DNA of 64,000 nucleotides. Source: Saccostrea cucullata (Eukaryota). The translations under genes were made by a program, and so were the position numbers. Shown piece by piece: positions 13,942 to 31,919 of the stretch. Where the stretch lies: positions 806,001-870,000 of the forward strand of contig NW_026938891.1 in the NCBI RefSeq assembly GCF_032062105.1, given 5' to 3'. A model generated the notes under the pieces. That model worked only from the letters and a program-made list of their open reading frames with translations, was not told the origin of the DNA and did no database searches. Position 1 is the stretch's first letter; every line of letters begins with the position of its first letter.

Positions 13942-14484
13942 TTAACCAGCAAGAGTTCCAGTGGTGTTGGTGGCGATCAATGCCAGACCGAACAGAGAGA
14001 CTGAAAAGAAAAAAATGGATTCATTAATAAAGCTATTCAATTATTTGATTTTACGATAAAACGAATGTTTACAAACGCTTGCAGAGAATGGTAAATCAGT
14101 TTAACATAAGGTTACGAGAGCTTAGTTATTTAAAATTTCGCATTTTTGCAAGGAAGAAAATCATTGTTTAGAACAAATAATTATGAAAAATTGTTTTTTC
14201 TCCACTCTGAACACAAACTTACAAAGGCTAAGGAGAGCGGAGGTCTGGAGACCGTTGACGGACTTGTTGATGGTTCTGGCGGCCTGGGCACGGTTGTAGC
14301 GTTCGTACTGTTTGTAGTAGTTGTCATAGTAGTTGCTGCGAGCGGCGGCATTTCCTACTCCCACGGTGGAGGGGTATCCCACGCCTGTGCCGAGCATCAT
14401 TGTGTTGCCATAGTAAGCGGACACCTGCGCAATGGCAATGGCAAGAAGACAAGTTGTGCCGATGAGGATTATTGCCTTGTTCAT
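13942..14484 (-). CDS. Secreted Tyr/Gly-rich protein A, 106 aa (exons 14484-14223, 14000-13942), C-terminus ...SALLSL|FSLFGLALIATNTTGTLAG*
   Basis: Signal peptide ending QVSA, TATAAAAA at ~14543-14550, gtaagt donor, tttcag acceptor, 321-nt spliced frame, 3'UTR intron 13904-13754, AATAAA at ~13688-13693. Confidence 0.88.
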
Positions 14485-15839
14485 GGTTGTTGTGTTTGGA
14501 GACTAGACTGAGCAAGTGACGATGGTTCGCTGGTTTGCTCTGTTTTTATACTGATCTACCTTCCTTTAGCAGACAACTGTGATGTAATTTGTACGTTACG
14601 CGAAAAAAGCGTAACTGTGTAAAGAAATGTCTGCCGCTTGCGCATGTCGTAATTTACTGGTTTCAAGGCTTTGCTTGAAAAAAGACATTCAGGATGTGTT
14701 TGTGTGATGCCGCTGGACATGAAATGGGCGCGTTATCACTTCCCGGATTATTAATTGTCAAATACACTAAATTTTCATCGACCAGTTCATTTATTTTATT
14801 TTAGAATTAATATTAAAAAGATTTTACGGGTTTTGATGTTTGTGGAATCTTCTGTTTATTATCTAAGTGAATGTTAAAGCGTATACGTTCTTATTTACGG
14901 TTTATCTAAATGAATTTTCTGTATTTGGAATTTGAAACATTTTCATTTAACTGTGAATCAGGATAATTTATTTGTTTAATGAAATACACCAATTCATTTT
15001 CCATCTATTTATTTAATTTTCTTTTACTGTATATAGTTTCAGATTTGAAAGTAATTCGTCAAAACAAAATATAACCTATTTTCAAAGTAAATTGCAACAA
15101 CTATTATGTATGATGACCAATAAAAAACATTAAGATAATTGTATTTTGTTAAACAAGGTTTATATCAAATTAAGAAGACAACAGTAGGATACCAATCATG
15201 GAACTACATCCAAAAATAATTGTGGTACCCCGCCCTTATATGTTATAATATCGATTTATGCAAAATTTAATTTACATTGAAAAAGTGTGCAATGATAAAA
15301 AAAAACTTTTAATATTCATTTTCTTATATTTACAACAACAGAATACCGGTCTAATCTCCTTTTATACGTATACTATTGCCCTTTATCAGACAGAAAACAA
15401 CAAAATGCATTTCACCTGTACAGTTTTCTAGAGCATTGACTGTTCCATCAATGAAAATGTTCAGTGACGTACTTTTCAATGCTACACTATTTCATCTTCT
15501 AAATTATATTTAAATGGATATAAATATAAACAAAAAAATCTTTCTTTGTTTGTTATTATGGGAATTAGCGTTGCATCTATTACAGAAAAAATACGTGGGT
15601 TAGGCATTTTTTTCTGCAACAGCAGCTGCAGCATTAATTCCAGTACTAACAACAAAAGACAATGTTAATTTGTTAACTGCAGTTTCTACATGTTTTATTT
15701 AGTAATGCTATTTACCAAGAAATGTATATCTGTCATGAAGTACCATTTTGAAAATGTTTTCATAAAGCGTCAATTTGGCATAAACGGTTGAGAATGTCAA
15801 CTACTATTCTATAAATGTAATCATTGATGACCTTCGTCA

Positions 15840-16630
15840 CCTGCATATGGAGTTTATATATCTCAGTTGATTAGATACGCAAGAGCATGTTCTACAAATG
15901 AACAATTTCTAAACAGAGGTATATGATTGACAGGCAAATTGCTGAAAAAAGAATATCAACAGTTTCGTTTTAGTCATCATTTCGTAAATTCTATGGTCGA
16001 TACAGCATAAATAATGATAAAAGTCAAATGCTGACTGACGTTTTTCATACGAATTTTTAGGCCATTATATACACTGAATTGTTGACAGATTTTTCCGTTA
16101 TTTTCCGATCCCGACACGGAGCACACGGCTGATGTGACCGGTCAGGAGGGGAAACATCAATTTAATAAATAATGTCCTAAAACAATTTTGCAATAAACAT
16201 GAACAGAACGAACAGAAATCAAGTTCAAAAGCTAATGAAATAATGAAAATTGTTCAGAGCAAACACGGGACCTCAAAGAACACTGGGGGTAGAGGAATAA
16301 GCATGCCCTATCCACCATTCAAAATGAACATGTTTTCCTTGTCACGGTCGGGAATAACGGCGAAAAATCTGTAGATGATTCAGTGTGAAAACAGTGCCTT
16401 CACAAATTGTGCATTCAATATCGCCAGTCTACATTCGAATTAATGTTAGGTTGTATTTACCGACAAGGTCATTGTATATCGACCACAAAATTTGCGAAAT
16501 GTTGACTTCAAACGAAACTGTTGATATAATTGTTCCATAAACCCATTTATCAATAGCATTTTTCTAGTAAAATTTTCAAATACTGAGTATGAAACAGATG
16601 TGACAGACTCTACTGTAACTTTTGTATCGA
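15840..16630. mobile_element. Two oppositely oriented Penelope-like RT 3' fragments (~15840-16150 +, ~16240-16630 -)
   Basis: Decayed SPAYGVYISQLIRYARA and FRKFYGRY motifs on + strand; LKSTFRKFCGRY on - strand. Confidence 0.65.
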
Positions 16631-16984
16631 GTTGAAAAGGATAATAACGAATCAAGGAAGAAATAAAAATGAATATTGTAGATTGATAAAATGTCGTCTA
16701 TATATCTAATTGAAGTCCTCGTCAAGAGACTTCTTTTCGTTTATAAGTTCTAGATCTTTAATTTTAATACAGAAATAGGTCTGGTAATAGCTGAGCACTG
16801 TAAGTACTCATGGTAACTCTGAAAAATTGTTGGAAGACTTGATTTCCAAAAACTACATTGGTACTGTCTTTCAGAAACTCAACATCTTTTCTTCTTTTTT
16901 TCTTTACATTAATTTAAGGGTACTTATGCGTACAAGATTTTATTCTCAACATATAAATTTTTCAAATGATCATTGACAAGGTAT

Positions 16985-30047: not shown

Positions 30048-31278
30048 AATATCAACTTAAGAGTACTTGTATTTAGAATCAAAATGATTTTAAACAAAAT
30101 AATATTGTAGATCACTTAACACAATACATGTACGATATATAGGTATATAAAAATTTAATGAATACTTTTTAGGGAGGTAAAACCAAGTCTTTTGTATTTT
30201 GAAGAATCCTTTTATAAAGCGTAGAGAAATTAATCCTAATTTGATTTACACCTCTCCTTGACATTGTTGTAGCATAATATTTTTTAAAATAAATATTACC
30301 AGTATATAACCTCACATAAATATTGAAACCCTAAAAAGAAATATTCTTGATATAATGTATTTGATATATAAAGTATTTTATTTAAAATCTTTTATAAGGT
30401 TCATTTTTTTTTCAACGCACTAAAACACATTGGACAGTAAATGCTACGACCATTTAATGAAAAAGACATAAAAAAATTAAAATCTCCAAACCAAGAAAAT
30501 TTTATTTAAACTAAATTCAAAAGATTATAAGACTAAAAGATCAGAGAGTGTTCTTTGATATCGTTCATATGTTTCCCTTTTATTATTTGTTACTTAGATA
30601 ATCGAAACAAAAGATTTAAGGAAACAAAAAATAATTCAATATTGAACTTTGGATATTACTTTTTTAAATTTATACATAAAGAGAATTTAATTCATAATTC
30701 GAGATTTTAAGATAAACATAAAATCATCACCAATACCATGAAAATATTTGTAATATATGTATGATTATATTTTGATGTTTATCTTTTCTTGTCGTTTGTT
30801 AAATTGCAATACTAGTAAATTGGCAATTTTATTTTTGCCTTGCGGCTTTGAAATGTAAGAGATAAATATAGTAATTCATATCACTAATTATGAAAGCCAT
30901 TAAGCATTTCCATATTAGTACATGATTTTTATTTTCATATGCACAGTTCATTGTTGTACGCGTAAATTTTATATTTGGTGTTATTACGTAAAAAAAACTT
31001 TAAAAAAGCTTTGAAACATATTCACAATGGCTAGCCTTAAATATATATAACCTTTCTGAGATTTTCTTATATAGTTATTGTACATAAGGGATATATCTTT
31101 TACATCACGCTATATGATTAAACTCAGGGTTCACTGTATAAAACAAGTTTGATGATAACTGAAACTCAGTTATCTATATATCTCTTTGATACATTTTCAA
31201 TTTGTAAAATCTGAAGTAAATCTGCAATGTTAGGGATTGTGGATACCTGTGTTATTAACTTCCTTTAACGAAGAAATC

Positions 31279-31365
31279 CAGACAGAATTATAACACCCGT
31301 GAACATATGACGTAATTTGTGCAATCGCACTTCACGTAAGTGGCTGATCCATTGGGTATATATAT
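31279..31365 (+). promoter_or_regulatory. Proximal promoter of gene E: CAGACA, CACCCG, ACGTAA x2, TATA
   Basis: Same motifs and spacing as 26308-26393. Confidence 0.65.
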
Positions 31366-31439
31366 CCCCGACAACATGTACGCTAGTAATCTCCTTTCTA
31401 CACTGTGGGATTCGCTATCAGCTCGCACCAAACAGCAAC

Positions 31440-31919
31440 ATGAACAAGTCCGTCATCTTGATGATCCTGCCATGCGTGATCGCTCTGGCCGTCGTTGCTG
31501 TTGAGGGTATGTACTACTACCCTGCAGCCCAGACCTCAGTTGTCGGGGGAGTCGGAAACACCGCTGCCAGACAGGCCTACCAACAAAGATACCTCCAGGA
31601 ATGGTTCCAGACCCGCCAACAGAGAAACCAGCTGAACAAACTCGCTAAACAATCCACCTTCTCAACCTTCGTCAACTACAGTAAGTTTTAGTACTGGATA
31701 TTTATTTCATATCAATTATATTAAGAGTTATGATTTACGCCTGAAGATGAAAGAAAGTGAATAAATAAACTAAAAAAAATGTTTTTAAAGTCTTTTTACC
31801 AATTTTAAGACAGAATGGTATCGTGATTATTTCTTATGTGTAAATCTTTTCATCTAGTTCCTCTGGTTCTTCTGTTGACCACCCTGACCAACAACACTGC
31901 TCTCCCCATCATTGGTTAG
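31440..31919 (+). CDS. Secreted protein E, 100 aa, same protein sequence as D (exons 31440-31680, 31858-31919)
   Basis: CDS differs from D only at a few synonymous sites and the stop (TAG vs TAA); 3'UTR intron 31960-32124, AATAAA 32171-32176. Confidence 0.9.

What the first reader, a model, noticed from the sequence alone, without database searches (positions are those of the whole stretch)
13942..31919. Invariant C-terminal sequon and Gly-stop suggest specific processing (amidation, glycosylation or anchoring)
Seen: in the last exon, the positions fixed in all paralogs include N-x-T (NTT, NST, NST, NNT) 8-9 residues from the end and the final Gly. Established: a C-terminal Gly on a secreted peptide is the substrate of peptidylglycine alpha-amidating monooxygenase, and N-x-T is the N-glycosylation sequon. 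Inference: if the hydrophobic stretch were a type I membrane anchor, the sequon would be cytosolic and unusable. Its conservation therefore favours a fully secreted tail that may be glycosylated and amidated. A GPI-signal or helix-capping role remains possible.
Basis: partly seen in the sequence, partly recalled or inferred. Interest (0 to 1): 0.7.

Follow-up and report, generated by a model that had tools for sequence, protein, structure and literature searches.

The report
Oyster larval-shell proteins with invariant tail
Five neighbouring oyster genes encode small, likely secreted proteins, two relatives of which were detected in cleaned larval shells, and all end in a fixed motif that likely receives a sugar chain and would have its last glycine trimmed to an amide; neither modification has been observed.

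Summary
Five rock-oyster genes (four distinct proteins, 19-35% identical) end in a hydrophobic stretch, [S/T]-N-x-T, then Gly-stop. Counted from a shared phase-1 intron, N is always codon 12 and T codon 14; x varies (T, S, N, R). Of 22 named gene models from Saccostrea, Ostrea, Crassostrea, Magallana and Pinctada, 21 keep the motif; the exception reads into the 3'-UTR intron. Such a pattern arose in 0.5% (N-x-S/T) and 1.1% (last Gly) of simulated alignments, although the total number of invariant columns is unremarkable. The family has no Pfam or PDB match. Orthologs of g3 and of a sixth paralog were detected by MS in C. gigas D-larval shells (Zhao 2018), one mis-listed as Smoothened through a fused gene model. 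Best reading: secreted larval shell-matrix proteins whose marginally hydrophobic end is fully translocated, N-glycosylated (about 0.65) and amidated (about 0.45). GPI is unlikely; a membrane anchor is not excluded for g1 and g2. No modified tail peptide has been seen. Verdict: an undescribed family using known chemistry in an unusual combination.

The parts
13942..14484 (-). g1 (subfamily A), 106 aa; coding exons 14484-14223 and 14000-13942; = P0001, LOC134251703
   Evidence: intron 14000/14223 spanned in RNA contigs and reads
13942..13968 (-). g1 tail: sequon N-T-T 13968-13960, Gly 13947-13945, TAA
20412..21312 (-). g2 (subfamily B), 123 aa; coding exons 21312-21253, 20985-20733, 20470-20412; = P0177, LOC134251716
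   Evidence: both introns spanned in RNA contigs
20412..20438 (-). g2 tail: sequon N-S-T 20438-20430, Gly 20417-20415, TAA
20209..20373 (-). 3'-UTR intron of g2, beginning 38 nt after the stop
   Evidence: GT/AG in the sequence; joined in one low-depth contig of run X7
22490..23027 (+). g3 (subfamily C), 128 aa; coding exons 22490-22814 and 22966-23027; = P0083, LOC134251660; its C. gigas ortholog was detected in D-larval shell
   Evidence: shell peptides; peptide identical at residues 91-98
22998..23027 (+). g3 tail: sequon N-S-T 22998-23006, Gly 23022-23024, TAA
26479..26961 (+). g4 (subfamily D), 100 aa; coding exons 26479-26719 and 26900-26961; = P0004
   Evidence: intron 26719/26900 spanned in RNA contigs
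26932..26961 (+). g4 tail: sequon N-N-T 26932-26940, Gly 26956-26958, TAA
31440..31919 (+). g5, duplicate of g4 encoding the same 100-aa protein; coding exons 31440-31680 and 31858-31919
   Evidence: 4 synonymous differences; no RNA laid on it
31890..31919 (+). g5 tail: sequon N-N-T 31890-31898, Gly 31914-31916, TAG
13309..13602 (-). ORF starting with a roughly 90-nt copy of the g1 5' end (signal peptide region), without the helix or the tail; likely a dead fragment

Best explanation
These five genes belong to an oyster and pearl-oyster family of small, likely secreted matrix proteins, two members of which were detected in larval shell; their marginally hydrophobic end is likely passed whole into the ER lumen, where the fixed N-x-T is predicted to be glycosylated and the final Gly would be trimmed to a C-terminal amide. 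Steps: (1) a 21-23 residue signal peptide is removed (inferred from sequence; many members then start with Gln). (2) The 12-18 residue hydrophobic stretch is too weak and wrongly charged to stop transfer, so the chain is released into the lumen (inferred; firm for subfamilies C/D, borderline for A/B). (3) The post-translocational STT3B oligosaccharyltransferase, which prefers N-x-T near C termini, adds the glycan (mechanism established, occupancy here inferred, about 0.65). The glycan would keep the greasy end soluble in transit. (4) PAM converts the terminal Gly to an amide, removing the only charge at that end in most members (mechanism established, use here inferred, about 0.45). (5) The basic, Tyr/Gly-rich amphiphile is deposited in the organic part of the first larval shell (shown for two orthologs by published MS, inferred for the rest).
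For: Exon-anchored alignment of 14 sequences: N, T and G invariant, x = T/S/N/R, neighbouring columns variable. 29 of 30 tail-reaching proteins and 17 of 18 distinct tails keep N-x-T...G, none with S at +2. Synonymous variation in N (AAC/AAT), T (ACT/ACA/ACC), G (GGT/GGA) and stop (TAA/TAG) codons points to protein-level constraint. The one other sequon (N-K-S in g1) is in only 2 of 14 sequences. Simulation: 10 and 24 of 2173. PMC3613688: extreme C-terminal NXT sites are modified faster than NXS, and N396GT of 402-residue SHBG is efficiently modified. PMC6313938: proteins ending in Gly can be amidated without prior cleavage. 2-4 Lys/Arg precede the hydrophobic stretch and 13 of 14 have none after N. 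Zhao 2018 (PMC6231486) data S6: two members in C. gigas D-larval shell, not adult shell.
Against: No glycopeptide or amidated peptide has been observed; the shell peptides end 30 and 36 residues before the C terminus. The best 19-residue Kyte-Doolittle mean is 1.6 or more in 8 of 14 sequences, and Zhao's table marks the g3 ortholog as transmembrane. Invariant columns overall are no more than expected (4 versus 5.7), and an invariant Asn also sits at residue 2 of the signal peptide, where it cannot be a sequon. Both AlphaFold models end their last helix at or just after the Asn (pLDDT 54), which fits capping. Zhao et al. could not exclude soft-tissue contamination of the C. gigas sample. Peptide strings for subfamilies A, B, D and the Pinctada member gave 0 hits in that supplement. 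The g2 ortholog is female-biased in C. virginica gonad (log fold change -7). One model, P0080, lacks the tail. PAM itself was not identified in this genome.
Confidence: 0.45

Rival explanations
1. Secreted and glycosylated, but not amidated: the final Gly is kept because a small residue is needed at the chain end for packing or cross-linking in the matrix.
For: Gly is the residue most often invariant by chance among those tested (13% given Gly). The residue before it varies (A, T, V, I). No amide has been observed.
Against: Gly stays exactly terminal although the spacer after the sequon differs by one codon between subfamilies and the stop codon varies. No extension or truncation in 17 of 18 distinct tails. 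A free terminal Gly in the secretory pathway is sufficient for PAM.
Confidence: 0.2
2. Type I membrane protein of shell-field or egg cells: the hydrophobic stretch is a real anchor, the 8-9 residue tail is cytosolic, and [S/T]-N-x-T is a helix-capping or turn motif.
For: KD19 1.53-1.93 and a rough insertion estimate of -0.3 to +1.0 kcal/mol in subfamilies A, A2, B. Predicted helix ends at the Asn. Transmembrane flag in Zhao's table.
Against: Subfamilies C/D have a Pro in the stretch and estimates of +1.9 to +2.4, yet share the motif. Positive charges lie on what would be the luminal side. Capping does not readily explain T without S at +2 with a free middle position. Members survived overnight 1 M NaOH cleaning of shells.
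Confidence: 0.13
3. GPI-anchor signal: the last 20-35 residues are cut off by the transamidase and replaced by a glycolipid.
For: Signal peptide plus an uncharged C-terminal run of 24-36 residues in 13 of 14 sequences. The shell peptides stop 30 or more residues before the end.
Against: A crude omega-site rule finds no candidate in 3 of 11 proteins, and the others scatter from -19 to -34. A discarded peptide should not keep three invariant residues across two bivalve families (established: GPI signals conserve hydrophobicity, not sequence). Arg occurs in the tails of P0019 and P0186.
Confidence: 0.07
4. Same tail chemistry, different place: some or all members are maternal egg-envelope or mucous proteins that co-purified with 24-h larval shells.
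For: g2 ortholog about 2^7-fold higher in female gonad of C. virginica. All four C. virginica members searched are listed among gonad-expressed genes, only one among gill genes. The C. gigas larval list includes housekeeping proteins.
Against: Only 1 of 4 members is sex-biased in those tables, and it sits among many noisy splice-variant rows. The two members found in shell belong to other subfamilies. Gonad samples can include mantle (own knowledge).
Confidence: 0.15

Closest known systems
Larval shell matrix proteins of Crassostrea gigas (Zhao et al. 2018, PMC6231486): TRINITY_DN33637 and CGI_10012432/TRINITY_DN30798
   Same: Orthologs of window g3 and of the paralog on contig C12240; the MS peptides occur letter for letter in P0083 and P0009. 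The DN30798 transcript keeps N-T-T and the terminal Gly.
   Different: Listed there as an unannotated Ala-rich fragment and as 'Smoothened homolog'; the table rows and the parts of the text I read do not relate them as a family or mention the tail. Orthologs of g1, g2, g4/g5 were not found in that supplement.
STT3B-dependent extreme C-terminal NXT glycosylation (SHBG N396GT; PMC3613688)
   Same: N-x-T within ten residues of the end, always T at +2.
   Different: SHBG is a soluble folded protein; here the sequon directly follows a hydrophobic stretch, so it is usable only if that stretch leaves the membrane. Occupancy is not shown.
Direct PAM substrates (secreted proteins ending in Gly; PMC6313938; amidated neuropeptides and venom peptides, recalled)
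   Same: Free terminal Gly on a signal-peptide-bearing chain, no cleavage needed.
   Different: An 80-105 residue matrix protein rather than a signalling peptide; no Gly-Lys-Arg sites or repeated peptides; a sequon 7-8 residues upstream.
Gly/Tyr-rich low-complexity shell and cuticle proteins (shematrins, prismalin-14, prisilkin-39; recalled. NCBI names P0005 'cuticular protein ACP-20-like')
   Same: Small, signal peptide, Cys-free mature chain, Gly/Tyr-rich variable N-terminal part, net basic.
   Different: No sequence match in Pfam or PDB. The conserved part is a Gln/Arg/Tyr helix plus hydrophobic end, not Gly repeats; the end is uncharged, unlike the basic C-terminal motif recalled for shematrins.

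Membership tests
Extreme C-terminal N-glycosylation substrates (STT3B) | N-x-T/S, x not Pro, within the last 50 residues, NXT favoured | tested here: met
   17 of 18 distinct tails, all with T; rule from PMC3613688
Extreme C-terminal N-glycosylation substrates (STT3B) | Sequon in the lumen and clear of a membrane-inserted helix | tested here: inconclusive
   KD19 1.36-1.93, 8 of 14 at or above 1.6; charge bias against type I
Extreme C-terminal N-glycosylation substrates (STT3B) | Glycan detected on the Asn | not testable with these tools
   Published shell peptides do not reach the tail
PAM substrates | Free C-terminal Gly on the primary translation product | tested here: met
   Gly-stop in 5 of 5 window genes and 29 of 30 tail-reaching proteins
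PAM substrates | Passage through the secretory pathway | tested here: inconclusive
   Signal peptide judged by eye and hydrophobicity, no SignalP run; shell MS for two orthologs
PAM substrates | PAM present in the secreting cell | tested here: inconclusive
   26 exon matches to PF03712 in the genome, not resolved into PHM versus DBH/MOXD; molluscan amidation is established knowledge; cell type untested
PAM substrates | Des-Gly amide detected | not testable with these tools
   No MS data covering the C terminus
GPI-anchored proteins | Small-residue omega, omega+1, omega+2 site at a consistent distance before the hydrophobic end | tested here: not met
   No candidate in 3 of 11; others at -19 to -34 (my own crude rule, NetGPI/PredGPI not run)
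GPI-anchored proteins | Uncharged, hydrophobic C-terminal segment reaching the end | tested here: met
   Uncharged run of 24-36 residues in 13 of 14; Arg in two tails
Type I single-pass membrane proteins | A hydrophobic helix able to stop transfer | tested here: inconclusive
   Borderline in A/A2/B, unfavourable in C/D (recalled scale with my own weighting)
Type I single-pass membrane proteins | Positive charges on the cytosolic (C-terminal) side | tested here: not met
   2-4 Lys/Arg before the stretch, none after N in 13 of 14
Bivalve larval shell matrix proteins | Detected by MS in cleaned larval shell | tested here: met
   Orthologs of g3 and of the C12240 paralog, D-shape yes, adult no; not shown for g1, g2, g4, g5; contamination not excluded by the authors
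Bivalve larval shell matrix proteins | Expression in the shell field at trochophore/D stage | not testable with these tools
   The paper's C. gigas heat map is a figure and is not held; runs carry no tissue label
Shematrins and related Gly-rich adult shell proteins | Extended Gly-rich repeats with a basic C-terminal motif (recalled) | tested here: not met
   Gly 5-20% of the mature chain and an uncharged hydrophobic end

The most novel reading that the evidence does not exclude
The family makes a biological surfactant for the first shell: a hydrophobic helix closed by an N-glycan head group and an amidated end, either on the whole protein or released as a 24-32 residue glycopeptide amide by cleavage after the last Arg/Lys. 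It would organise the larval organic film on which aragonite is laid. Glycosylation and amidation within eight or nine residues of each other would be a fixed signature of a skeletal matrix family kept since oysters and pearl oysters split, and would tie larval shell formation to copper- and oxygen-dependent PAM.
Probability: 0.15. Interest if true: 0.75.

Novelty: new variant of a known kind. Interest (0 to 1): 0.47.

Why it matters
Larval shell formation is the stage at which oysters are most vulnerable (established knowledge), and many larval matrix proteins are unannotated. This work groups scattered 'uncharacterized' genes from five genera into one family with a precise, cheaply testable processing signature. 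It also shows that the 'Smoothened homolog' entry in a published larval shell proteome most likely is a member of this family. If amidation holds, a skeletal matrix protein would depend on PAM. If only the glycan holds, it is a natural case of a sequon used right behind a hydrophobic stretch at the very end of a chain.

Tried and rejected
Family assignment: Pfam gave no hit over cut-off for four window exons or nine full-length members; PDB sequence search gave one chance-level hit (E 0.3). ESM Atlas gave unnamed clusters at 0.81-0.83 and helix-only structural neighbours. AlphaFold models had pLDDT 54 and pTM about 0.24, so no fold search was run. A three-copy complex prediction of g4 residues 41-100 returned no answer (score 0.01) and is not used as evidence. 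DNA-level constraint was rejected because N, T, G and stop codons vary synonymously. Gene-prediction artefact was rejected because RNA contigs span the introns of g1, g2 and g4. 'Invariance alone is significant' was rejected (4 observed, 5.7 expected). P0080 as a true loss was judged unlikely but not excluded: its last six residues equal the translation of the 3'-UTR intron/exon boundary of g2. Literature: gene and protein ids found one oyster paper, PMC12040131; six peptide strings found no relevant paper; topic searches showed no description of the family in titles or abstract starts. Peptide or id searches in supplements of PMC5854119, PMC13190495 and PMC5379566 gave 0 hits; whether those files hold sequences was not checked. 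Earlier scan findings: none. A recalled paper on full translocation of GPI signals was not found or held and is not relied on. Run depths (g2 4701, g3 2612, g1 and g4 about 5 in X5) carry no tissue label and are a lead only.
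Full report
Setting. The window is AT-rich eukaryotic DNA at G000:C21028:806001-870000. Its proteins are named by NCBI as Saccostrea cucullata uncharacterized proteins. Between 13.9 and 31.9 kb lie five small genes: g1 (106 aa, minus), g2 (123 aa, minus), g3 (128 aa, plus), and g4 and g5 (the same 100-aa protein, 4 synonymous differences). My exon models agree with NCBI's. RNA contigs span the coding introns of g1, g2 and g4; the g3 joint was not among the rows shown and g5 lay outside the stretch laid. 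A sixth paralog lies on contig C12240 (P0009), and a frameshifted near-copy of g1 on C3939.

Anatomy. Each protein has a 21-23 residue hydrophobic N terminus (signal peptide judged by eye), a variable Gly/Tyr-rich part, a basic Gln/Arg/Tyr-rich stretch predicted helical at low confidence, a 12-18 residue hydrophobic stretch, [S/T]-N-x-T, four or five mostly small or hydrophobic residues, Gly and stop. Mature chains have no Cys and a net charge of +1 to +9. The four distinct window proteins are 19-35% identical.

Checking the observation. N is 8 from the end in g1/g2 and 9 in g3-g5, so unanchored alignments can slip by one column. The shared phase-1 intron settles the register: N is codon 12 and T codon 14 of the last coding exon in all 14 sequences aligned, and the one-codon length difference lies between sequon and Gly (for non-window species the intron position was set by exon length). 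The exon is not the last one: a donor-like site follows each stop by 32-45 nt, and one low-depth contig joins across it in g2.

Conservation. Profile searches reached Saccostrea, Ostrea, Crassostrea, Magallana and Pinctada, and nothing named outside these (15 hits at E 0.001 or better; 34 at E 10 or better). Of 201 proteins stored, 30 reach the last coding exon; 29 keep N-x-T and the final Gly, including 21 of 22 named gene models. The other 171 were left out: one is my own off-frame translation, the rest are ORFs called on contigs that, where I read them, run from an exon into the intron or are fragments. The exception, P0080 (UniRef, M. gigas), ends in six residues identical to the translation of g2's 3'-UTR intron/exon boundary, so it is probably a mis-spliced model; a real variant is not excluded. 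The middle residue is T, S, N or R, never Pro; +2 is always T; codons vary synonymously. An internal N-K-S in g1 is present in only 2 of 14 sequences.

Against chance. On a tree of length 5.9, 5.7 invariant columns are expected among 92 and 4 are seen, so invariance as such is ordinary. The placement is not: 3 of 4 lie in the last 9 columns (p=0.0025). In 2173 simulated alignments an invariant N with S/T two columns on appeared anywhere in 10, and an invariant final Gly in 24. The fourth invariant, Asn2 of the signal peptide, warns that invariant Asn can have other causes.

Topology. The best 19-residue Kyte-Doolittle mean is 1.36-1.93, at or above 1.6 in 8 of 14. A rough insertion estimate (recalled scale, my weighting) is -0.3 to +1.0 for subfamilies A, A2, B and +1.9 to +2.4 for C, D, which also carry a Pro. 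Lys/Arg lie before the stretch (2-4) and are absent after N in 13 of 14, the reverse of a type I anchor. A sequon touching a membrane helix would be out of reach of the transferase even on the luminal side (PMC3613688 cites a 1.5-3 nm offset), so glycosylation requires the whole stretch to be translocated. A GPI signal fits the uncharged end but not the lack of a consistent omega site (none in 3 of 11) nor the invariant residues in a peptide that would be discarded.

Known chemistry. PMC3613688 (start of abstract and passages read) shows that sites in the last 50-55 residues are modified after translocation by STT3B, NXT faster than NXS, and that N396GT of 402-residue SHBG is efficiently used. 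PMC6313938 (passages) states that proteins ending in Gly can be amidated without cleavage, and that 49 of 771 predicted secretory Chlamydomonas proteins end so. The genome has many copper-monooxygenase exons, not resolved to PAM. Nothing here shows either modification.

Where the proteins go. Zhao et al. 2018 (PMC6231486; parts 1-2 of 6 of the text, passages, and supplement rows read) list two members in C. gigas 24-h D-larval shell and not in adult shell: TRINITY_DN33637, the g3 ortholog, and TRINITY_DN30798, the ortholog of P0009. Each has two overlapping peptides; the shorter ones occur unchanged in P0083 and P0009. The second entry is filed under gene model CGI_10012432 as 'Smoothened homolog', but both peptides lie in the small transcript given beside it. 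In this genome multi-exon Frizzled-family matches lie 6.5 kb upstream of the paralog on the same strand, which explains a fused model. Caveats: the authors could not exclude tissue contamination, and strings for the other subfamilies gave no hit. PMC12040131 (passages, section 14, supplement rows) has the g2 ortholog at log fold change -7 in gonad, on the female side by comparison with genes named female-high; the other three members searched show no effect. An egg-envelope role for some members therefore stays open.

Verdict. The fixed tail is real, old and sequon-like. The best reading is a secreted larval matrix amphiphile with a glycosylated and probably amidated end (0.45 for the whole statement; glycan about 0.65, amide about 0.45). 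Rivals: glycan without amide 0.2, maternal or mucous location 0.15, type I anchor 0.13, GPI 0.07. I found no description of the family in the searches named, which miss subscription journals and most supplements. It is a new variant among low-complexity shell matrix proteins, built on known enzymes; interest 0.47.

Noticed in passing
G000:C12240:311117-312428 and 318915-319783 (L022): Multi-exon Frizzled-family (Smoothened-like) matches lie 6.5 kb upstream of the sixth paralog on the same strand. The 'Smoothened homolog' CGI_10012432 in the published C. gigas larval shell proteome is supported only by peptides of this small protein, so it is most likely a fused gene model.
   Followed up: yes
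window 13904, 20373, 23060, 27007, 31960: All five genes have a donor-like site 32-45 nt after the stop, under the roughly 50-nt distance that triggers nonsense-mediated decay (recalled). The 3'-UTR exons of g2 and g4 start alike.
   Followed up: partly
window 21312-22490: g2 and g3 are head to head with start codons 1.18 kb apart, and both reach depth in the thousands in run X5 while g1 and g4 stay near 5; possible shared control. The run has no tissue label.
   Followed up: no
window 26479-26961 and 31440-31919: g4 and g5 differ by 4 synonymous changes; S. echinata also has two loci for one identical protein (LOC133190125/126), suggesting an older duplication kept alike.
   Followed up: partly
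N termini of all members: Met-Asn-Lys start is nearly fixed (Asn2 invariant in 14 of 14, Lys3 in 13 of 14) although it lies in the signal peptide; many members have Gln right after the likely cleavage site (possible pyroglutamate).
   Followed up: no
window 13309-13602 (-); G000:C3939 (L026): A 5' fragment of g1 lies just downstream of g1, also on C3939; the C3939 copy of g1 has indels before the intron that shift its frame while the tail exon is intact (allele or assembly error).
   Followed up: partly
C. virginica LOC111118638 (g2 ortholog): Female-biased in gonad, log fold change -7, in PMC12040131 supplements.
   Followed up: partly
window about 7300-12200 (-): Multi-exon aldehyde dehydrogenase gene next to the cluster (Aldedh hits on two exons).
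   Followed up: no
window about 28000-28950, and dispersed copies at 15.8-16.1, 33.5-35.4, 50.2-53.6, 59.3 kb: Degraded retroelement-like sequence between g4 and g5 with a YLDD reverse-transcriptase-like motif read from the sequence (label recalled), and related dispersed repeats.
   Followed up: no
window 46071-47179 and 39000-41900: Tandem arrays with 162-nt and about 437-nt periods.
   Followed up: no
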